Positions 30,168-41,947 of a stretch of 64,000 nt of DNA are shown one piece after another. Each line of letters starts with the position of its first letter. Position 1 is the first letter of the stretch. The notes beneath the pieces were generated by a model. It saw only the letters and a list, made by a program, of their open reading frames with translations, was not told where the DNA came from and ran no database searches. Made by a program: the position numbers and the translations under genes. Origin of the DNA: a virus (Duplodnaviria; Caudoviricetes); the IMG/VR virus record IMGVR_UViG_2881096153_000005, positions 10,147 to 74,146 of that record; one strand, written 5' to 3'.

Positions 30168-30224
30168 GTCCTACCTTAATTTCTAAGGCCCCTGCATATT
30201 CGTAGACATAATTCAGTACTACGA
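30168..30224 (+). promoter_or_regulatory. Late-promoter-like motif before head genes
   Basis: GTCCT at 30168, ATATTCGTA at 30196, and inverted repeat TCGTAG...CTACGA ending on the start-codon A. Confidence 0.55.
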
Positions 30225-31105
30225 TGCTTCACCGTTTTTTTTCTGGCCCCTGGGCAATGGAACCCCGCCTGCACGACCGCCTGGCACCCTTGGTGCTGAG
30301 TGGCCGGGTGGATTTGAATGCCGCCAAACTTGCGCGCGATCGCCGCTCTCCCCGCTTTGAAATTGTTGCGCTCGATGCGCCAACGAAAAATGCGGTCGGG
30401 AGTGGATCTGCCTATCGGTACCTGCCTAAGTTGGGCACGAAAGAAGGGGTGGTTCCAATCATCCCGGTGATTGGTACCATGACCCGCTATGGCGATATGT
30501 GCAGCTACGGCACCGAGGATATTTCGGCGTGGATTCTGGAAGCAGAAAACGACCGCTCGGTGGTTGGAATGGTGCTCGAAATCGACTCGGGGGGTGGTGA
30601 AGTGAATGGCACCGAACTGCTGGCCGAAGTGGTGCGACAGAGTTCCAAACCCGTAGTGGCCTATGTCACAGGAATGGCGGCAAGCGCTGCCTATTGGGTG
30701 GCAAGTGCTACGCAGTGGATTGTGATGGAAAGTGCCACGGCTTCGGAAGTGGGCTCCATTGGCGTGCTGAGCATGCACGTGGACATGACCAAGGCTCTGG
30801 AAAAACAGGGAATGGCCGTGACGATCATCCGGGCGGAAGGCTCGGAAAACAAGGCCTTGTACAATTCTGTCGAGCCGATCGACGCTGCGATGATTGCCGC
30901 CGTGCGCGCAGAGATGAAGCCGATTCGGGAAGCCTTCGAGGATTCGGTGCGAGCTGGCCGGCCAAACATTTCGGACAAGGTATTTGAGAGCAAGGGCGGG
31001 ATGTTTCCTGCCTCCAAGGCCGTTGGGCTGGGCATGGCCGACGAGATTGGATTTCTTGGAAATGCAGTGGCGAAGGTGCTCGAACTGGCTCAAAAAGGAG
31101 AATGA
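30224..31105 (+). CDS. S49-family (SppA-like) prohead protease
   Basis: LEIDSGGGEV, GMAASAAYWVAS, VGSIGV, catalytic-Lys region KALYN, GMADEIG. Confidence 0.9.
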   Translation: MLHRFFSGPWAMEPRLHDRLAPLVLSGRVDLNAAKLARDRRSPRFEIVALDAPTKNAVGSGSAYRYLPKLGTKEGVVPIIPVIGTMTRYGDMCSYGTEDISAWILEAENDRSVVGMVLEIDSGGGEVNGTELLAEVVRQSSKPVVAYVTGMAASAAYWVASATQWIVMESATASEVGSIGVLSMHVDMTKALEKQGMAVTIIRAEGSENKALYNSVEPIDAAMIAAVRAEMKPIREAFEDSVRAGRPNISDKVFESKGGMFPASKAVGLGMADEIGFLGNAVAKVLELAQKGE

Positions 31106-33536: not shown

Positions 33537-33978
33537 TGCGGCGCTTACCGCCCTGGACAAAGCCGCCAAAGGTGCCTATAAGGTGCTGAACGAAGTGGCT
33601 GATAATACCTACGAAGGCTCCCCCGCCGAAGCCGAACCTACGAAGCATGCGTATGAGATCAGTTTGCGGCTTCGCAAGCAGCTTGAAATCTACGAAGCCA
33701 ATGCCCAATACGACGGCATGTCTCCGGAAGAAATCGAGCTAAAAAAAGCGACCGACCTGGCCGAAGCTCGCGCGAAACTGAAAGCCGAAGCAGCTGCAAA
33801 GCTGGCCGAATTGAAGCCGAAGGCGGTGAAAGAAGTGGTGATGGAGGAAGATCCTGACCATGATGCGATGCCAGTGCCGATTAGTGATCCGGAGCCGGTG
33901 CAAGATCCTGAACCGGTGCAAGAACCTGAACCGGTTGGTGATCCTGAACCGGTGCAAGATCCAGAACCTTCGGCCTAG
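33517..33978 (+). CDS. Hypothetical protein with C-terminal DPEPVQ repeats
   Basis: Helical N-terminus followed by five hexapeptide repeats. Confidence 0.6.
   Translation: MSKAKVNAALTALDKAAKGAYKVLNEVADNTYEGSPAEAEPTKHAYEISLRLRKQLEIYEANAQYDGMSPEEIELKKATDLAEARAKLKAEAAAKLAELKPKAVKEVVMEEDPDHDAMPVPISDPEPVQDPEPVQEPEPVGDPEPVQDPEPSA
33886..33975 (+). repeat. Five tandem 18-bp units (consensus GATCCTGAACCGGTGCAA)
   Basis: Units start at 33886, 33904, 33922, 33940 and 33958. Confidence 0.9.
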
Positions 33979-33996
33979 TATGAAAAGCTATCTATG

Positions 33997-34030
33997 AAAA
34001 ACAGCCTTACGAGCGTAGGGCTGTTTTTTT
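33997..34030 (+). terminator. Intrinsic terminator
   Basis: AAAAACAGCCTTAC-gagc-GTAGGGCTGTTTTTTT. Confidence 0.8.
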
Positions 34031-34072
34031 GTGTCCTGTTGTATAGGGAAGGCTAGTGTGTATATTTGTAAC

Positions 34073-34212
34073 GCTAACGATTGATAATTTTCTGGGGTAC
34101 AAGTGTGGACATGCAATGGAATCAGGGCATGGCCGGTAAGCGTGCGGTTGTAAGTACCGCACCACTTGTACTCCGTTATTGGATTATCGGTCGTTAGCAG
34201 CGACTTACCGGC
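34073..34212 (+). ncRNA. Candidate structured non-coding RNA (unassigned family)
   Basis: 16-bp and 12-bp nested helices with G-U pairs, two inner hairpins and a 9-bp pseudoknot-type pairing. Begins just after a promoter motif (34033-34070). Confidence 0.65.
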
Positions 34213-34227
34213 TTATATTTCTCCCCG

Positions 34228-34566
34228 ATGATTCCTGCTCCTGTTGGTTTTGAAAGCCTGAATGAATTTCTCCATCGAAAAAAAATTGATGCAGAATATA
34301 TCCGCAGCTCTTTGGAATCGTACCTCGGTAGCTATGATCACCGGCAGTGTGACTCGGACGATCTCGAACTTGATCATCAGGTATGGGCCTATCGACAGAT
34401 CATTCATGAATTTGTTTTGATTCTCTACAATGACAGCAGCACAGCAGATACAGAAGCAGAAGGCAGCGCTGAGCCTGATGGAAATGAAAGTAAAGGCAGG
34501 CCGAGCACGCCCGGAGCAGCTCGACGCCCTGCGCAGCCAACTGGCCACCCTGCAAAAAAACGCTGA
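34228..34566 (+). CDS. Possible hypothetical protein
   Basis: 112-aa ORF. Its last 137 bp overlap the next gene in another frame, so it may be spurious. Confidence 0.35.
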   Translation: MIPAPVGFESLNEFLHRKKIDAEYIRSSLESYLGSYDHRQCDSDDLELDHQVWAYRQIIHEFVLILYNDSSTADTEAEGSAEPDGNESKGRPSTPGAARRPAQPTGHPAKKR

Positions 34567-35086
34567 GCAAAAACCCCCATCGCCCGATCGGGCAGCCCCC
34601 ACTACCCCAACTCCCGAAAAAACCGCAGCTGAGCGCCCGAAGGGTGAAGCCTATGCCGAAAAGCAGGCCGAACTAAGCACGGAAGCCAACGAGCTACGAA
34701 AGGAACAGGCGAAACTTAGCAACTTGCTGCACAAGGTGTCGCCCCACGTGGATTGCTACGAGTTGACGTCGCGTATCTACGAGTTGCAGGTACAGATTGA
34801 AGGACTGTGGGATGAAAAAAAGTACATCGAGCGAAACGGCCTGGATACGGGTGGCACGTTTCGTGATAGGCCAGAAAAAGTAGTGCCTGCCAAATCGCTG
34901 GACGATGTGCAGCACAAGGCCGTGCTGACCGTTGAGCTGCAACGGCTCCGGGAAAAGCGCTCGAAAGTGACAAGAAAGTTGGAAAACCCGAAATCGGCAG
35001 AATCGAAACGGGCAGAATGGAGCATCGAGCTCGCGCAGACGAATGCACGCATCGAGGAGCTGACGGCTCAGCGGTATGTACTTTAA
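34430..35086 (+). CDS. Coiled-coil hypothetical protein
   Basis: 218 aa, heptad-rich. Confidence 0.65.
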   Translation: MTAAQQIQKQKAALSLMEMKVKAGRARPEQLDALRSQLATLQKNAEQKPPSPDRAAPTTPTPEKTAAERPKGEAYAEKQAELSTEANELRKEQAKLSNLLHKVSPHVDCYELTSRIYELQVQIEGLWDEKKYIERNGLDTGGTFRDRPEKVVPAKSLDDVQHKAVLTVELQRLREKRSKVTRKLENPKSAESKRAEWSIELAQTNARIEELTAQRYVL

Positions 35087-35233
35087 GGCTTGCCCCGCAT
35101 TTTTCGCCACTCTTTCCATTCTCTATTGGTGGTGAAGGTCGGGAGCGGGAGCAGTAATTGAAACATTGCCCAAAAGTACCATTTGAGTATTCGCCAGGTG
35201 CGATTTTGTTTTTTTACATTTTTACTGTTAGCC

Positions 35234-35854
35234 ATGATTAATGAATTGTTTGTAACACAGAGGGTTGCTATTTCGGAATTGGTGCCCCACGTTAAGAATC
35301 CGCGGAAGATCAAAGCTACTGAAAAACAGAAACTTTGGGAGCGGATCCAAAAATTTGGCATGATCGGTATTCCCGTCCGGGATGCTGATAATACACTGCT
35401 AAGCGGGAATCAGCGATGTGAAGTGCTCGCATCGCATGGCCTGGGTGATTATGTCATCGACGTGCGCACGGCAGTGCGTAAACTCACCGAGCAAGAATTG
35501 CGGGAGGTGATGATGATCGAGAACAGCCACGCCGGAGAGTTTGATATGGAGGTGCTGAAAGCGGAGTTTGACGAATACATCGACCTCGATAGCTTTGGCC
35601 TAAGCCTGGACGAGCTGGCAAAGGACCTGACCGAAGCGGGCTCGGAACTCGCACCAAGCGAACCGGAGCTGCCTATTGTTGCGAAATTCAGCGAAAAGTA
35701 CGACTCCGTGGTGATCATCTGCCGAAACGAAATTGACTATAATCACCTGGCTGAAAAGCTGGGACTTGATCGCTCGCAGTGCTATAAGAGCAGCAAGGTA
35801 GGTACCACGCACGTGCTTGATGCGAAACAGGTGATTGAGGTTTTGACGAAATAA
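35234..35854 (+). CDS. ParB/Srx-like N-terminal domain protein
   Basis: LVPHVKNPRKI...IQKFG....PVRD.DNTLLSGNQR; ATG at 35234 in TTAGCCATG context. Confidence 0.8.
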   Translation: MINELFVTQRVAISELVPHVKNPRKIKATEKQKLWERIQKFGMIGIPVRDADNTLLSGNQRCEVLASHGLGDYVIDVRTAVRKLTEQELREVMMIENSHAGEFDMEVLKAEFDEYIDLDSFGLSLDELAKDLTEAGSELAPSEPELPIVAKFSEKYDSVVIICRNEIDYNHLAEKLGLDRSQCYKSSKVGTTHVLDAKQVIEVLTK

Positions 35855-35908
35855 TCTACTGAATACCTGGCGAGGCCTGCGAAGTACTCCCAAACAAAAT
35901 TTTGGCAA

Positions 35909-36649
35909 ATGAAAGAAGTTAAGATAATAATTCCCTCGCACAAACGGGCGACCCGCGTCCGGACTACGAGTGCGGTCTATGGTGCTGCACTATGCGTCGA
36001 AGAAAGTCAGGCGGATCTGTACCGAAAGTGCAATCCCGGGATTGAGATCATAACGCACCCTGACAACGTGATCGGGCTGACCCGGAAACGGGACTGGATG
36101 ATCAGGAACATTGGTGATGTGTTTATGCTCGATGATGACATTGAGCACCTGAGCAGGATCTATACCGAACCGGGTGAAGAAACGGTGGTAGATCCGGAAG
36201 TGGCGCACGATATAATCCAGATGACTGCCCACGCTGCCTGGCAGGCGGGCGCTTATTTGTTTGGGTTCAGCTCGTCACCCACCCCAATTTCCTTTAACAG
36301 CCTGAACCCCGTACAGCTGAGCGGCTACGTGACCGGCTGCGCCCATGGCGTTCTGACTGGCTCGAAGCTTTGGTACAATGGTGATATTCACTGTAACGAA
36401 GATTATTGGATATCGCTTCTTAATGCGCACCATCACCGCCTGATCTGGAAGGACACACGGTTCTATTGGGCACAAAAGGACACTTTCGTGAACCGTGGTG
36501 GCCTGGCTGAATTTCGTAACGTGGAAAATGAGGAGAAAGATTTTCTGCTACTCCGAAAGGTGTTTGGTGACGTGGTTGAGTTGCGAAAGTCGAACGGAAA
36601 GTCTAAATTGGCACATGCGTTTCAGAAAAGTTTGAGACTGCCGTTTTAA
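35909..36649 (+). CDS. GT-A fold glycosyltransferase, TET-associated (TAGT/GREB1-like) type
   Basis: IIIPSHKRA, VFMLDDDI (DxD), CNEDYWISL and NRGGL motifs; follows a ParB-like gene. Confidence 0.72.
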   Translation: MKEVKIIIPSHKRATRVRTTSAVYGAALCVEESQADLYRKCNPGIEIITHPDNVIGLTRKRDWMIRNIGDVFMLDDDIEHLSRIYTEPGEETVVDPEVAHDIIQMTAHAAWQAGAYLFGFSSSPTPISFNSLNPVQLSGYVTGCAHGVLTGSKLWYNGDIHCNEDYWISLLNAHHHRLIWKDTRFYWAQKDTFVNRGGLAEFRNVENEEKDFLLLRKVFGDVVELRKSNGKSKLAHAFQKSLRLPF

Positions 36650-36670
36650 AATCCATAGAACCAAAGTGCT

Positions 36671-36701
36671 GCCCCTGGACAATTGTTCAGGGGCTTTTTT
36701 T
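36671..36701 (+). terminator. Intrinsic terminator
   Basis: GCCCCTGGAC-aatt-GTTCAGGGGC followed by seven Ts. Confidence 0.75.
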
Positions 36702-36840
36702 GTGTGGTCCTACATTTCCTGCTACTTTTTTCGCCCCTATTCCCTACCACGCAGCGCCATTCTCACGGGCGATTTTCAGCCCAAAAAACCTCAAAAAAAC
36801 TTCATTTTTCAGGAAAAATAAATGGTTCGTGGTGTTGTTA

Positions 36841-36913
36841 ATCCGTTCTGTCGGGAGATCTTTATATCAGTTAACAATCACATATTTAACCTTTTAACTC
36901 CAATTAAGCAATG
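36841..36913 (+). repeat. Duplicated promoter/leader, copy 1
   Basis: ATCCGTTCTGTCGGGAGAT(C/A)TTTATATCAGTTAA...CAATTAAGCAATG recurs at 38541-38612. Confidence 0.85.
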
Positions 36914-37621
36914 GAAAACGTAAGCACAATTTCGCAAAATGAAGTAGTAGTAGCCACTCGCCGGAACAAAGATCGTTTCCTGGAAGCGACCGGAAAATCA
37001 GAACAAGAGTATTACGCCTGGGCTACCTTAGTCGGGCAGCGTATGCACATTAACAAACTAGATGGGCTATTGTGTGCGAAAATCGGAATCTATACGGTTG
37101 CCCACCTAATTCACAAGCAAACGCAACTGCCACAGGGCATTGAGCAAAGCGAGGTGCAGGCGTACCTGATCGAAAACAGCAACAACCCCTATGAGCTCGC
37201 GCAGATTTGGTTGAGCCTAAAATCCGACGTCGAGAATTGGGTAAGCAAAGAAAGCATCCTGAATGAGTGGTTGACCGGCATCCGGAAAGAAGATTTTGAG
37301 GCGCACGGTGATCCCAATCATGCTGCGGATGTAAGCCGGGCGTGGTGGAAAAAGGACGCTGACGGTTTGGATGGTATTTTGCAAGAAATAAACAGTATGG
37401 AATTTTTGAATACGGAAATCAGCCTGAGCGATGCCATCGAGTTCATTCGGGCCAACCGCCCAGGGCGGTGGATTTGCCCCGCACTTACCGCGCAGAAATT
37501 AGTCGAGAGCCGGTTCAAGACCTTGACCACGTTCAACATCAAGGACTACTACGTAGAGCACCTGTTGAAAATGTGCCGAATCGAAACGGAACTGATTGCA
37601 GACGAAGATCTGCCGTTTTAA
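36911..37621 (+). CDS. Hypothetical protein
   Basis: 236 aa, with its own leader and terminator (37631-37657). Confidence 0.7.
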   Translation: MENVSTISQNEVVVATRRNKDRFLEATGKSEQEYYAWATLVGQRMHINKLDGLLCAKIGIYTVAHLIHKQTQLPQGIEQSEVQAYLIENSNNPYELAQIWLSLKSDVENWVSKESILNEWLTGIRKEDFEAHGDPNHAADVSRAWWKKDADGLDGILQEINSMEFLNTEISLSDAIEFIRANRPGRWICPALTAQKLVESRFKTLTTFNIKDYYVEHLLKMCRIETELIADEDLPF

Positions 37622-37681
37622 TCACCTACCAGGCCCCGAGCGATCGGGGCCTTTTTTGTTTCACCGAAAATCAAAATACTT

Positions 37682-38476
37682 ATGAGCAATATGCAAGACG
37701 CCCCGCGGCAAGTGAGGCCGATGGTGGATGTACTGAAAGAGTTTGGGGAGTACCGTTTCGACCCGGCAGACGTTTTCCGGGATTTTATAGATTATGGCAT
37801 TGGCTGCCTGCTGGTCCACGGTGATCTGGACATGGGCAAACGCCTGCTGGATAAGTATGGAGCCGATTATGCGAAGTTCGGCACGATGCTCCGGGCGTGG
37901 ATTGGGATTCTGGATAAGGAAGTGGCAGGCGATGGACAATGGTTTGATGCTTTGGGCTCGCTGTATGAATATTTGGCCAGCCAAAACAAACGCAGTTGGT
38001 TGGGGCAGTTTTTCACCCCTGCCTCAGTCTGCGACCTGATGACCATGCTAACGATCCAAAACATAGAAGGGACTGGCAAGCGGGTGAATGATCCTGCCGT
38101 GGGAAGCGGCCGCACGCTGCTCTCCATCAATAGTCGGTGGCCAGGCAATTATATGTTTGGCGAAGACATCGACCCGATTTGTGCCAAGATGGCGGCGCTG
38201 AATTTGGCCTTTCATGGTGCCCAGGGACAGATTAGCTGTTTGGATTCGCTGCGCCTTAACAGCTGGAAATTTGGTTACGAGCTTAACCCCTACCACCGTC
38301 ACGGAGCGCCGCCGATTCCGCACCTGCTGCCGATTACGGAAGAAGGCAGCGTGGTGATGCAACACTGGCGGCAGCGAGTGCCCGACGTGGTTCAACAGCC
38401 GGTTGAAAAAGTGGCCAAACCTGCCCCGATACCAGAACCCAAACCTGTGTTTACGAGCCAATTGAGCTTGTTTTAG
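37682..38476 (+). CDS. N6-adenine DNA methylase-like protein (HsdM-type SAM-binding domain, truncated)
   Basis: LGQFFTP, VNDPAVGSGRTLL, GEDIDPICAKMA.LNL; no NPPF/Y motif. Confidence 0.78.
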   Translation: MSNMQDAPRQVRPMVDVLKEFGEYRFDPADVFRDFIDYGIGCLLVHGDLDMGKRLLDKYGADYAKFGTMLRAWIGILDKEVAGDGQWFDALGSLYEYLASQNKRSWLGQFFTPASVCDLMTMLTIQNIEGTGKRVNDPAVGSGRTLLSINSRWPGNYMFGEDIDPICAKMAALNLAFHGAQGQISCLDSLRLNSWKFGYELNPYHRHGAPPIPHLLPITEEGSVVMQHWRQRVPDVVQQPVEKVAKPAPIPEPKPVFTSQLSLF

Positions 38477-39012: not shown

Positions 39013-39201
39013 ATGTCAAAGGTAGCGCAAAAAATCACAAAAAGGAAGGTCGGCTCGAAATACTGCCGCAGAATTAGAAACAGAGCGGTATGGGCCCCAT
39101 CGCTAAATCTTGCCGGGATCTGGATGCGGGATGCAGGGTTCAAGATCGGTGAGCGAGTAGATGTAATAGTAGTTAAGGGCAAGATAATCATTCAGAACTA
39201 A
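39013..39201 (+). CDS. symE: SymE-family toxin-like protein (AbrB fold)
   Basis: PSLNLAGIWMRDAGFKIGERVDVIVVKGKIII matches the SymE pattern P.L.L.G.W...AGF..G..V.V.V..G.I.I. Confidence 0.75.
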   Translation: MSKVAQKITKRKVGSKYCRRIRNRAVWAPSLNLAGIWMRDAGFKIGERVDVIVVKGKIIIQN

Positions 39202-39770
39202 TGGGAAAGTACGACATAACGACACAAAACGAATACGATTTCTTTGAGGTCAGCTCGGCAATGCAAAAGTGCATCCGCAGGGGAATGGAGGAAGAAGCTC
39301 TCTATTGGGCGGTGGAGCTCTACAATTCTGGATACAGCGAATATGTATGGAAGCGGCTCCGGATCATGAGCAGTGAGGATGTTGGGTTGGCGCATCCATC
39401 CATTTCATCAGAGATTTGGGCGCTTTACTGCATGTTTAAGGAACAGGCAAAGAAGAAGGAGGATAAGAACGAGCCGCAGCGCCTGTTTCTCACGCATGCG
39501 GTTTTCATCCTTGCCCGATCGCGCAAGAGCCGGCTAATTGATTGGGCGCTGCTCTGGGCATGGATCACGCATAAGTTTCGTAGGCTCGAAATCCCTGATT
39601 TTGCCTACGACAAGCACAACGAACGTGGTCGGCAGCAAAAACGTGGATGGGGTCACTTCTTTCGGGAAGGCACTCAATTGGAAAACCCGGCAGACGTCTG
39701 GAAGGAAGATGAGTATCGACGTCGGGCGATGAAGGCGATTGAAGATCCGGAGGGGATGGGTTTGTTTTAA
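39201..39770 (+). CDS. Stand-alone MgsA/RarA C-terminal-like helical domain protein
   Basis: SAMQKCIRRG..EEALYWA......VWKRL....SEDVGLA and PDFAYDKH...G; no Walker motifs. Confidence 0.72.
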   Translation: MGKYDITTQNEYDFFEVSSAMQKCIRRGMEEEALYWAVELYNSGYSEYVWKRLRIMSSEDVGLAHPSISSEIWALYCMFKEQAKKKEDKNEPQRLFLTHAVFILARSRKSRLIDWALLWAWITHKFRRLEIPDFAYDKHNERGRQQKRGWGHFFREGTQLENPADVWKEDEYRRRAMKAIEDPEGMGLF

Positions 39771-39837: not shown

Positions 39838-40380
39838 ATGAATGAATTAGAAAAAATGCCTCCTGGGGACTTCCTGCCCGAAAAAGGCAAACACAAGCTC
39901 GACAAGTTCAAGGACCATCTTGTTGCTCAGGTGCCACTATCTGCCAGGGATCAGGAGTATTTTGAAAAAATGAAAAAAGCCTGGTCGTGGGCGACAAAGA
40001 TGTTCTCGCCACAAAAAGTAGTCGAGATGCTGCACAACGAGTATGGCCACGAGAAAACCCACGCCTATCAGATTCTTCGGGATAGTTATGCGCTGTGGGG
40101 TGATGCCTATGACCTGGACAAAAAAGGAGCGGCAAAGGTACTCGTCGAGTCTGCGTATGTTGCCCTGCAAATTGCAGTACGTGACAAAAACGGTGAACTG
40201 ATCCTAAAAGCGGTCAAGGAGCTGCGCGAGCTCCAACAAATTGATAAGCTCGAAACAGCGATTTCTCCTGAGCAGGCCATGCCGCCAGGTACGCGAGTGT
40301 ATGTCTTTACTGCCCCCACGCAAAATGAGGGTACTGGTTCTGGAAAGGAGGTGGAAGATGGGGAATATAGTGTTGAATAG
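39838..40380 (+). CDS. Probable terminase small subunit
   Basis: Directly upstream of and overlapping terL; helical; preceded by the late-promoter motif at 39779. Confidence 0.55.
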   Translation: MNELEKMPPGDFLPEKGKHKLDKFKDHLVAQVPLSARDQEYFEKMKKAWSWATKMFSPQKVVEMLHNEYGHEKTHAYQILRDSYALWGDAYDLDKKGAAKVLVESAYVALQIAVRDKNGELILKAVKELRELQQIDKLETAISPEQAMPPGTRVYVFTAPTQNEGTGSGKEVEDGEYSVE

Positions 40381-41947
40381 TCGAGAGATACAGATCAACG
40401 TCAATCCTGCGCAGGGTCGGTTTCTTCATGCTTTGATGGAGAATGAAGCCGATTTTGAGAAAAACGGCAAAATGTATCAGACTGGTTTTCGAGCAACTTT
40501 CAACGGTGGGCGTGGATCCGGAAAAACCAATGTGCTAATGAAATTGCTGGCGGAAGTGGCATTTGCCCTGCCTCGATCTAAGGTTGGGCTTGCCTCCATG
40601 ACCTATCGACACGTGCAAGACGTTGTACTTTCACAGAGCCGAAAGGTTTTCGAGGACTATGGCTTGTACGAATATGACCCCAAGGTTCGCCCATGGGGTC
40701 ACTACACACTCAACCGCCGACCGCCCGAAACTTGGTGGCATCCCTACGAAGGGATTAATACGTACGAAAACTGTATCTGCTTCAAGAACGGATGTACGAT
40801 CGTATTTCTTTCCGCCGATCGCCCGGACACAGCACGTGGATTGAACCTCGATGTGCTGCTAATGGACGAGAGCTTTAAGTTGAAAGAGGACTTCTATAAT
40901 ACCGTATTGCGTAAAACGGTACGAGCTAACAAGTATTTGTATGCGGATCCACGTCCGCACAGGAAAGGTTTCAACCATCCACTTCATTGGCTCATTGCCG
41001 ATTTCACGTCCGCAGCATGGACCCCTGAACAGCAGTGGATCTACCGCACCGAGGAGCTCATGAAGAAAGACCCGAAGCGCTACTATTTTCAGGAAGCGAC
41101 TGCCTACGATAACCTCGATAATTTACCAGGGAACTTCATCGAAACAGAACGTGAATCCTGCGCAGACGAAATGACCTTTGAGGTCGAGATCCTGAACCGG
41201 CGCGTGATCAGGCTGAACAACGCCTATTATCCATCGCTAAGTACGAGCCGTCACACTTACAATGAAATGTACGACTATCAGTTCGATGACAAGTCTCGAC
41301 TGTATGTTCACAAGCGTATCGACTATGATGAAAACAAGCCCCTCGAAATCAGCTGCGATTTTAACGCACGGTTTACCTGTATGGTTATTGCTCAGGAGTT
41401 TCCGAGCGAGCTGCGTTTCATAGATAATATCTTTGTCAAGCGTGCCAATACTACCCTGGTTGAAGAAATGGCTACTATATTCTGTACCAGGTACAAGGCC
41501 CACAAAAAGAGGGTGCTGTTTTTATACGGTGATAGTTCTGGAAAGAAGGGTGATCCTGGTAGAACTACTACCCACTATCAACAACTAATCCAAGTACTTA
41601 GAAATAATGGGTGGTCGATTAAGGACTGCGTACAACAATCCTACCCTCCTTACAAAATACGCTACCGTGTAGTGAATACTATCCTATCTGAATCTAAGCC
41701 CTCTATACCTCGTATACGTATCAACGAGATAGAGTGTAAGTCACTACTCATTAGCCTCCAGCATGCACCAATCATTAGTGACAACTTCGAGAAAGACAAA
41801 CGTTCAGAGAACAATGAAAAGCTTGATCAGCAATATGCAACACACTTAAGCGATGCATTCGATTACATTGTATTCAAGAAGTTCTCACGTATTGTCCCAA
41901 TCACAAGCTCAGGATCAAGGCGCATGAGAACATCCAATGCCGCTTAA
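40358..41947 (+). CDS. terL: Terminase large subunit
   Basis: Walker A GGRGSGKT, ARGLN, Walker B LLMDES, nuclease motifs SCDFN, YGDSSG and HLSDAFDY. Confidence 0.92.
   Translation: MGNIVLNSREIQINVNPAQGRFLHALMENEADFEKNGKMYQTGFRATFNGGRGSGKTNVLMKLLAEVAFALPRSKVGLASMTYRHVQDVVLSQSRKVFEDYGLYEYDPKVRPWGHYTLNRRPPETWWHPYEGINTYENCICFKNGCTIVFLSADRPDTARGLNLDVLLMDESFKLKEDFYNTVLRKTVRANKYLYADPRPHRKGFNHPLHWLIADFTSAAWTPEQQWIYRTEELMKKDPKRYYFQEATAYDNLDNLPGNFIETERESCADEMTFEVEILNRRVIRLNNAYYPSLSTSRHTYNEMYDYQFDDKSRLYVHKRIDYDENKPLEISCDFNARFTCMVIAQEFPSELRFIDNIFVKRANTTLVEEMATIFCTRYKAHKKRVLFLYGDSSGKKGDPGRTTTHYQQLIQVLRNNGWSIKDCVQQSYPPYKIRYRVVNTILSESKPSIPRIRINEIECKSLLISLQHAPIISDNFEKDKRSENNEKLDQQYATHLSDAFDYIVFKKFSRIVPITSSGSRRMRTSNAA

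What the first reader, a model, noticed from the sequence alone, without database searches (positions are those of the whole stretch)
34073..34212. Highly paired ~140-nt RNA with a potential pseudoknot, with its own late promoter
Seen: P1 GCTAACGATTGATAAT (34073-88) pairs with ATTATCGGTCGTTAGC (34183-98), 16 bp with 2 G-U. P2 GGGGTACAAGTG (34094-105) pairs with CACTTGTACTCC (34163-74), 12 bp with 1 G-U. Inner hairpins are CATGC/GCATG (34110-31) and GTGCGGT-tgtaagt-ACCGCAC (34142-62). The junction strand GCCGGTAAG (34132-40) is perfectly complementary to CTTACCGGC (34204-12) outside P1, giving a pseudoknot or alternative fold. It lies after a strong terminator and starts 3 nt after the putative -7 box. 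G-U pairs favour RNA over a DNA palindrome. I do not recognise the family. Inference: a virion-stage ncRNA, ribozyme, RNA-polymerase decoy (6S-like rod) or switch controlling the downstream ParB/glycosyltransferase operon.
Basis: partly seen in the sequence, partly recalled or inferred. Interest (0 to 1): 0.78.

Follow-up and report, generated by a model that had tools for sequence, protein, structure and literature searches.

The report
New start-codon-gating leader RNA family
The 140-base fold is real: it is one member of an uncatalogued family of structured mRNA leaders in Bacteroidota prophages and toxin genes, in which a loop pairs with the stretch just before the start codon of the next gene, most likely to control its translation.

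Summary
No Rfam 15 family matches.

I collected 45 homologues:
- five copies in this genome;
- matches in 24 of 151 sampled genomes of the family, which includes Persicitalea (Bacteroidota);
- matches in three other families of the class.

All share one design. A TAnnTTTG promoter box ends 4 nt before P1. P1 leads through a U-rich bulge to P2 and a three-way junction with P3 and P4. P4 carries a GNRA loop.

The "pseudoknot" is the best-supported pairing. It has 9 bp, a conserved bulged A and 2-3 further bp. It was paired in 98.8% of cells, and 8 of 11 pairs changed on both sides. Its 3' strand ends 3-18 nt before the start codon of a conserved small ORF.

A divergent subfamily leads SymE-family toxin genes in four orders.

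Best reading: a leader RNA that gates translation by masking the initiation region. Whether it acts in cis or between molecules is unresolved. The resemblance to P4 CI and P1 c4 lies in the logic only; this RNA is not a member of that family.

The ribozyme, 6S-like decoy and virion-RNA readings have no support.

Another window of this scan noted the same stretch as "c4/CI-like". No other DNA was noted before.

The parts
33996..34030 (+). Intrinsic terminator of the upstream head-gene operon (15-bp hairpin plus U run)
   Evidence: Folds at -19.7 kcal/mol, z -5.5. A U run precedes the promoter box in 35 of 45 homologous loci.
34033..34068 (+). Promoter: TTG (-33) at 34039-41 and a TAnnTTTG (-7) box at 34061-68
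   Evidence: Single match of the composite pattern in the window. A perfect TAnnTTTG is present in 34 of 45 loci and ends exactly 4 nt before P1 in 32 of them. The box is not part of model R1.
34073..34088 (+). P1, 5' strand; the transcript probably starts here
   Evidence: The outer 6 bp are 99.6% paired, and all 6 pairs change on both sides.
34089..34093 (+). U-rich 5' side of the internal loop between P1 and P2 (the 3' side is 34175-82)
   Evidence: An asymmetric loop with more bases on the 5' side occurs in nearly all homologues.
34094..34105 (+). P2, 5' strand
   Evidence: Compensatory changes are seen in close relatives. Every homologue folds into a P2.
34107..34134 (+). P3 hairpin; its 3' strand overlaps the first bases of the seed
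   Evidence: In other subfamilies the 5' strand of P3 repeats the target sequence.
34132..34143 (+). Seed: 9 nt in the junction between P3 and P4, plus 3 nt that also form the base of P4
   Evidence: In all 22 sequences tested, this is the best duplex partner of the target anywhere in the RNA. Covariation is shown.
34142..34162 (+). P4 hairpin with a GNRA tetraloop (34150-53), an invariant U.G closing pair (34149 with 34154) and a bulged U (34155)
   Evidence: Six of 7 pairs change on both sides. The U.G pair is present in 40 of 40 sequences. Loop variants are all GNRA.
34163..34174 (+). P2, 3' strand
34183..34198 (+). P1, 3' strand
34200..34212 (+). Target: 3 nt, a bulged A (34203) and 9 nt complementary to the seed; it begins 2 nt after P1
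   Evidence: Helix 98.8% paired, with 8 of 11 pairs changed on both sides, on an alignment whose model did not include this helix. The extension and bulged A are shown.
34228..34566 (+). First gene of the operon: a conserved small protein (about 70-aa core, three helices, Pro-rich N-terminus). Its start codon lies 15 nt after the target.
   Evidence: Protein alignments A5 and A7. AF2 model with pLDDT 77. No Pfam, PHROG or PDB fold match.
34430..35086 (+). Second gene: a coiled-coil protein that overlaps the small ORF. It is followed by ParB-like (35183-35854), TAGT glycosyltransferase (35909-36649), N6 methylase (37682-38476), MgsA_C (39201-39770) and terminase (40241-41947) genes.
   Evidence: The same gene order occurs in L002, L003, L004, L250, L396 and L400.

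Best explanation
This is the 5' leader of a prophage operon, and it belongs to a previously uncatalogued family of structured leader RNAs of Bacteroidota.

Transcription starts at a host-type TAnnTTTG promoter, so the RNA begins with P1. It folds into a very stable rod (P1, a U-rich bulge, P2) capped by a three-way junction (P3 and P4).

A 12-nt seed spans the P3/P4 junction. It is complementary to the 13 nt that follow P1 and end a few bases before the AUG of the first gene. These bacteria do not rely on Shine-Dalgarno pairing and need an open initiation region. Seed-target pairing should therefore mask that region and shut off translation of the small ORF. Through overlap and polarity it could also affect the genes behind it.

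The seed is partly locked in P3 and P4, so the RNA is poised between an open and a masked state.

Shown: the fold, the promoter position, the covarying seed-target helix and its position next to the start codon.

Inferred: that the pairing represses translation; what flips the switch; and whether the pairing forms within one molecule or between molecules. The between-molecules case could involve either a stable leader fragment or a second transcript, as with P4 CI and P1 c4.
For: - The fold and its significance.
- No Rfam match.
- Homologues: 45 found by synteny and by model R1.
- Seed-target helix: 100% paired with 6 of 9 pairs covarying in 21 sequences. A 3-bp extension past a conserved bulged A was found. 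In 41 sequences it is 98.8% paired with 8 of 11 pairs covarying, and the model had no knowledge of this helix. More divergent members keep the pairing with quite different letters.
- G-U intermediates occur on the + strand only, and one U.G pair is invariant.
- The target ends 3-18 nt before the AUG.
- Energetics: duplex -15 to -22 kcal/mol against 9-20 kcal/mol to open the seed, net -1.6 to -9.8.
- The promoter box sits at a fixed 4-nt distance from P1.
- A sister subfamily sits in the same way before SymE toxin genes in 8 of 9 loci sampled. In E. coli, SymE synthesis is blocked by an RNA that covers the start region (PMC4147584). In that subfamily a second covarying pairing also covers the start codon itself.
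Against: - No expression, probing or translation data exist.
- In the window the target ends 15 nt before the AUG, which may leave room for a 30S subunit.
- P1 ends only 2 nt before the target, and the seed lies at the far end of a 19-35 bp rod. Pairing within one molecule therefore needs a sharp fold at the internal loop. The P1 and P2 lengths differ by -4 to +8 bp among members, which fits a rigid fold-back poorly.
- In some subfamilies the seed is almost fully buried in P3.
- Four homologues of the small ORF have no such leader, so the leader is dispensable.
Confidence: 0.55

Rival explanations
1. Trans-acting leader-derived antisense RNA, or RNA dimer. The rod is cut off, or simply outlives the message. 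Its seed then pairs with the target on other transcripts of the same or a co-resident prophage, giving delayed negative feedback or cross-immunity, as with P4 CI and P1 c4. Alternatively, two full leaders pair head-to-tail. This is a variant of the best explanation, not an opposite of it.
For: - Geometry: the linker is 2 nt while the rod is 19-35 bp, and rod lengths vary.
- In several subfamilies P3 holds a second copy of the target. This gives a target-seed-target order like seqA-seqB-seqC of P4 (PMC4825925).
- The genome holds five copies in two seed classes.
- The RNA begins with a closed 5' helix, which should make it stable.
Against: - No processing signal and no terminator of its own were seen.
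- The constant 2-nt spacing between P1 and the target, the conserved bulged A and the GNRA loop look more like one compact fold.
- No second target exists elsewhere in the window.
- No match to the Rfam C4 model.
Confidence: 0.25
2. Sensor RNA (riboswitch, thermometer or protein-binding operator). A ligand, temperature or a phage or host protein binds the junction or P4 and decides whether the long-range helix forms.
For: - The opening and pairing energies are balanced.
- Tertiary-structure hallmarks are present: a GNRA loop, an invariant U.G pair and bulged bases.
- The position in a leader fits a sensor.
Against: - Outside the helices, few unpaired positions are conserved, and the seed itself varies freely as long as pairing is kept. 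No ligand pocket is therefore apparent.
- The genes controlled (a phage small protein, a SymE toxin) suggest no metabolite.
Confidence: 0.12
3. Processive antitermination or RNA-polymerase-modifying leader, like HK022 put or the Bacillus EAR element. It would let transcription from this promoter read through to the terminase genes.
For: It is promoter-proximal, lies at the head of a long operon and follows a terminator. The resemblance to put and EAR rests on my knowledge of those systems and was not tested.
Against: - The same RNA precedes single-gene SymE cassettes that have no long operon.
- Its most conserved feature is tied to the start codon, not to terminators.
Confidence: 0.05
4. Not an RNA at all, but a DNA-level site such as an origin, a pac site or a ParB-binding palindrome.
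For: Long inverted repeats lie near a ParB-like gene.
Against: - Many G-U pairs, including an invariant U.G, would be A-C mismatches on the other strand.
- The stems covary without conserving sequence.
- The element is present at loci without ParB.
Confidence: 0.02

Closest known systems
P4 CI RNA and P1/P7 c4 RNA (Rfam C4 family)
   Same: A phage leader carries a short seed complementary to sequences that flank it in the same transcript. In several subfamilies the order is target copy, seed, target copy. Seed and target covary between elements. The target sits at the start of a small first ORF of an operon.
   Different: There is no match to the Rfam model. The fold differs: a long rod plus a three-way junction, and about 125 nt against about 77 nt. 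The host phylum differs. This RNA lies in the morphogenesis and packaging region, not the immunity region. Processing and trans action are unproven here.
SymR/SymE and other type I toxin-antitoxin RNAs
   Same: An RNA pairing covers the translation start region of a SymE-family gene (sister subfamily). The mechanism proposed for SymR is a translational block (PMC4147584).
   Different: SymR is transcribed from the opposite strand. Here the complementary segment is built into the toxin's own leader on the same strand. The window's ORF is not a recognisable toxin.
Small start-codon-proximal leader pseudoknots of Bacteroidota and their phages
   Same: The phylum is the same, and a covarying pseudoknot strand lies a few to about 20 nt before the start codon of genes that lack Shine-Dalgarno sequences.
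   Different: Those are compact H-type knots of 20-35 nt. This is a 125-nt rod with a three-way junction and a long-range helix. No Rfam family reaches its gathering score anywhere in the window.
Translational operator pseudoknots (T4 gene 32; E. coli rpsO/S15)
   Same: A structured 5' element with a pseudoknot abuts the initiation region and sets translation.
   Different: Those operators bind a known protein encoded by the regulated gene. No binding protein is known or implied here. This comparison rests on my knowledge and was not tested.

Membership tests
Rfam C4 antisense RNA (P1 c4, P4 CI) | Match to the family covariance model | tested here: not met
   No match at gathering score in the window. 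No match at E up to 10 in 33900-34400.
Rfam C4 antisense RNA (P1 c4, P4 CI) | A seed complementary to target sequences in the same transcript, covarying between elements | tested here: met
   A second internal target copy occurs in some subfamilies.
Rfam C4 antisense RNA (P1 c4, P4 CI) | Processed from the leader into a stable small RNA that acts in trans | not testable with these tools
   Needs Northern blots or RNA-seq and genetics.
Type I toxin-antitoxin (SymE/SymR type) | Antitoxin RNA transcribed antisense to the toxin's 5' end | tested here: not met
   The element is on the same strand as the ORF. Strand-specific G-U pairs show this.
Type I toxin-antitoxin (SymE/SymR type) | The downstream gene is a toxin | tested here: inconclusive
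   The sister subfamily precedes PF08845 SymE genes. The window's ORF has no family or fold match.
Metabolite riboswitch | Conserved unpaired nucleotides that form a ligand pocket, and a coherent set of regulated genes | tested here: not met
   Conservation lies in the helices, the GNRA loop and the bulged A, while the seed letters vary. No riboswitch model matches.
6S RNA | Match to 6S models; a rod with a central open-promoter-like bubble; a free-standing gene | tested here: not met
   No Rfam match. The RNA has a three-way junction, has no terminator and runs into an ORF.
Known self-cleaving ribozymes | Match to hammerhead, twister, pistol, hatchet, HDV-like or other models | tested here: not met
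   No Rfam match. Cleavage itself cannot be tested here.
Rfam DUF805b and similar leader pseudoknots | Match to the model | tested here: not met
   No family reaches its gathering score in the window.

The most novel reading that the evidence does not exclude
The two complementary segments sit at opposite ends of a stiff rod and are joined to it by almost no linker, so they may be unable to meet within one molecule. The RNA would then work only between molecules. Possible forms are antiparallel homodimers, head-to-tail chains of leaders, or a long-lived leader fragment acting on fresh transcripts. That would make it a concentration-sensing RNA timer. It would shut off a phage packaging operon, or a SymE toxin, once enough transcripts have accumulated, and it would allow cross-talk between the five related elements in this genome.
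Probability: 0.2. Interest if true: 0.8.

Novelty: new variant of a known kind. Interest (0 to 1): 0.62.

Why it matters
Bacteroidota largely lack Shine-Dalgarno pairing, and little is known about how they or their phages control translation initiation. This family offers a well-defined test case with strong covariation: about 125 nt, more than 40 natural variants, and a built-in set of compensatory seed and target mutants.

It also links a phage packaging-side operon to SymE-type toxin genes through one shared RNA design. A 2025 paper states that type I systems have so far been found only in Proteobacteria, Firmicutes and Tenericutes (PMC12390103 abstract). An RNA-controlled SymE in Bacteroidota would extend that range.

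The family deserves a curated model in Rfam.

Tried and rejected
- **Phage-database BLAST of the element and of 10 kb around it:** no match.
- **Exact-pattern scans of the conserved core:** the 16-mer was too short and gave only chance hits in genome contigs and mostly chance hits in viral contigs. Longer patterns found only the sister prophage in IMG/VR. They gave mostly chance hits plus one true contig in metagenomes. Two 18-mer hits were read and rejected as chance.
- **BLAST of the RNA across the family:** only close relatives were found. Synteny through the small ORF, and then a covariance model, were needed.
- **RNAcofold:** it cannot represent pairing into a multiloop, so I replaced it with opening energy plus duplex energy.
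- **Fold search of the small protein:** nothing informative.
- **A conserved pairing between the P1 3' strand and the start codon in the phage subfamily:** rejected as general, although it holds in the SymE subfamily.
- **A composite GTCC / -33 TTG / TAnnTTTG promoter pattern (a GTCC element upstream of the -33 TTG and -7 box):** it occurs only at this site in the window, so I could not confirm that the promoter is 'late'.
- **Literature searches:** no description of this RNA was found.

Full report
**The observation**

- As RNA, the + strand folds into P1, an internal loop, P2 and a three-way junction with two hairpins. The energy is -65.8 kcal/mol, against -44.5 +/- 3.7 for shuffles (z -5.7).
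- The opposite strand folds 14 kcal/mol worse, because the stems use G-U pairs.
- A strong terminator hairpin with a U run lies at 33996-34030.
- A TAnnTTTG box, the -7 element of Bacteroidota promoters (established knowledge), lies at 34061-68.
- No tRNA was found. No Rfam 15 family matches at gathering score in the window, or at E up to 10 around the element.

**Setting**

The window is a prophage.
- Head protease (30224-31105) and further head-region genes lie upstream.
- Downstream lie a small ORF (34228-), a coiled-coil ORF, a ParB-like gene, a TET-associated glycosyltransferase, an N6 methylase, an MgsA_C protein and the large terminase.
- One relative of the host genome is Persicitalea jodogahamensis, so the family is Bacteroidota.

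**Homologues**

- BLAST found a second, 75% identical copy in the same genome and two copies in related genomes. The stems already differed by compensatory changes, while a core stayed fixed.
- The ORF that begins 15 nt after the element is a real, conserved small protein. Its few database relatives gave three more loci with the RNA.
- A profile of this protein searched in six frames found more distant homologues in the family. Most of these carry a diverged RNA of the same design upstream. Four carry none.
- I built covariance model R1 from 22 sequences. It used only P1, P4 and primary sequence.
- R1 found five copies in the window's own genome. It matched 24 of 151 sampled genomes of the family, and it found hits in three other families of the class.
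- In the phage-type loci whose surroundings were read, the context is constant: a roughly 190-230-aa protein, an acidic protein, a terminator, the promoter box, the RNA, the small three-helix protein and the coiled-coil protein.

**Anatomy shared by all members**

- A perfect TAnnTTTG box is present in 34 of 45 loci and ends exactly 4 nt before P1 in 32 of them. The box was not part of the model, so the transcript most probably starts at the first base of P1.
- P1 has 10-19 bp.
- The internal loop is asymmetric and mostly U-rich, with more bases on the 5' side.
- P2 has 9-16 bp.
- P3 is a hairpin whose 3' strand runs into the seed.
- P4 is a hairpin with a GNRA tetraloop (five GNRA variants seen), an invariant U.G closing pair and a bulged U.
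- After P1 come two bases and then the target.

**The long-range helix**

On the 22-sequence MAFFT alignment, the 9-bp helix is paired in 100% of cells, and 6 of 9 pairs change on both sides. It continues for 2-3 more pairs beyond a conserved bulged A in the target strand. One of these extra pairs occurs as A-U (10 sequences), G-C (7) and U-A (3).

On 41 distinct sequences aligned to a model that knew nothing of this helix:
- it is 98.8% paired, and 8 of 11 pairs change on both sides;
- the whole tested structure is 96.6% paired, against 74.6% for shuffles and 28-41% for slid partners;
- 0 of 500 shuffles reach the observed values.

Divergent members keep the pairing with quite different letters. 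In all 22 sequences tested, the seed is the best partner of the target anywhere in the RNA. G-U intermediates lie on the + strand only.

**What the helix touches**

- The target ends 3-18 nt before the start codon of the small ORF, 15 nt in the window.
- There is no Shine-Dalgarno sequence; the spacer is pyrimidine- and U-rich.
- Duplex energies of -15 to -22 kcal/mol roughly balance the 9-20 kcal/mol needed to free the seed from P3 and P4, leaving a net of -1.6 to -9.8. This is what one expects of a switch.
- In several subfamilies the 5' strand of P3 repeats the target sequence, so the order is target copy, seed, target.
- That is the logic described for P4, where CI RNA pairs with seqA and seqC on either side of it (PMC4825925). 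Another first-stage note on this stretch proposed the same comparison.
- Membership in that family fails: the Rfam C4 model does not match, and the fold and genomic position differ.

**A sister subfamily**

- One weak class-level hit (L425) lies before a gene that Pfam assigns to SymE toxins (PF08845, E 1.7e-11), in a non-phage setting.
- I fetched nine loci for six SymE homologues from Sphingobacteriales, Chitinophagales, Cytophagales and Flavobacteriales. Model R1 scored full-length matches that end about 14 nt before the start codon in eight of them. The weakest of the eight was only 8.6 bits (E 0.44). The ninth locus gave only a partial match.
- Seed and target covary there too.
- In that subfamily the 3' strand of P1 can also pair with the start codon and the next three codons (94% paired, 4 of 10 pairs changed on both sides).
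- This second pairing is not general in the phage subfamily.
- E. coli SymE is held in check by an RNA that covers its start region (PMC4147584). The association therefore supports a translational role.
- Rfam has no match for these leaders either.

**Cis or trans**

P1 ends 2 nt before the target, and the seed lies at the other end of a rod of 19-35 bp. Pairing within one molecule needs a near-hairpin bend at the internal loop.

Against a rigid fold-back: the difference between the P1 and P2 lengths ranges from -4 to +8 bp.

For one compact fold: the constant 2-nt linker, the bulged A and the GNRA loop.

I cannot decide between these with the tools at hand. RNAcofold cannot model the pairing. 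I therefore commit to the function (masking of the initiation region) at about 0.55. I keep intermolecular action as the main variant at about 0.25.

**Rejected readings**

- A DNA site is excluded by strand-specific G-U pairs.
- A metabolite riboswitch is unlikely, because no unpaired pocket is conserved.
- 6S-like and ribozyme readings have no support from Rfam or from the anatomy.
- Antitermination fits poorly with single-gene SymE cassettes.

**Novelty**

No Rfam family matches, and five full-text literature searches found no description of this RNA. The kind of element, a cis-encoded leader that pairs with its own initiation region, is known. The family, its architecture and its distribution are new as far as I can tell.

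Earlier notes of this scan describe other, much smaller start-proximal pseudoknots in Bacteroidota phage leaders. I did not check those notes. They suggest that this may be one of several solutions to the same problem.

Noticed in passing
G000 contigs C11 (L002), C39 twice (L395, L396) and C9 (L397): The genome holds five copies of the leader, each in a related prophage-like module. They fall into two seed classes: the window and C11 share one, and C39 (both copies) and C9 share the other. Another genome (G003) holds three copies with the same seed.
   Followed up: partly
L425:1501-1860 and L426-L432: A divergent subfamily of the same RNA is the leader of SymE-family toxin genes in four orders of Bacteroidota. 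It has an extra covarying pairing between the 3' strand of P1 and the start codon region.
   Followed up: partly
window 34181-34190 with 34225-34234: In the window only (and in L375), the inner 3' strand of P1 can form a 10-bp helix with the start codon region (-13.1 kcal/mol, z -2.1). It is not conserved in the phage subfamily, so it may be chance.
   Followed up: yes
window 34228-34245 and homologues: The small protein always starts with a Pro-rich stretch directly after the Met, with invariant prolines at positions 3 and 5; one lineage has four prolines in a row. Such runs can stall ribosomes close to the leader. The possible link to the RNA was not examined.
   Followed up: no
L374, L380, L391, L392: Four homologues of the small ORF have a promoter and a short plain leader without the RNA, so the module is optional.
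   Followed up: partly
L399 (G040): An intact copy of the RNA is followed by a decayed small ORF and then a Dam-like methylase gene. This looks like a prophage remnant that kept the RNA.
   Followed up: no
L421 (G002): A 41-nt mini-version has only a short P1 hairpin and a target-like tail. It is either a deletion derivative or a chance hit (31.8 bits).
   Followed up: no
window 35183-38476: ParB-like, TET-associated glycosyltransferase and N6-methylase genes sit between the leader and the terminase, and no TET/JBP oxidase was seen among the ORFs scanned. The relative L250 has the leader and the terminase but lacks this cassette.
   Followed up: no
L401, L420, L424: Low-scoring members (33-39 bits) with an intact seed-target pairing precede unrelated small proteins in non-phage settings, for example next to AraC-type and Schlafen/AlbA_2 genes in L401.
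   Followed up: partly
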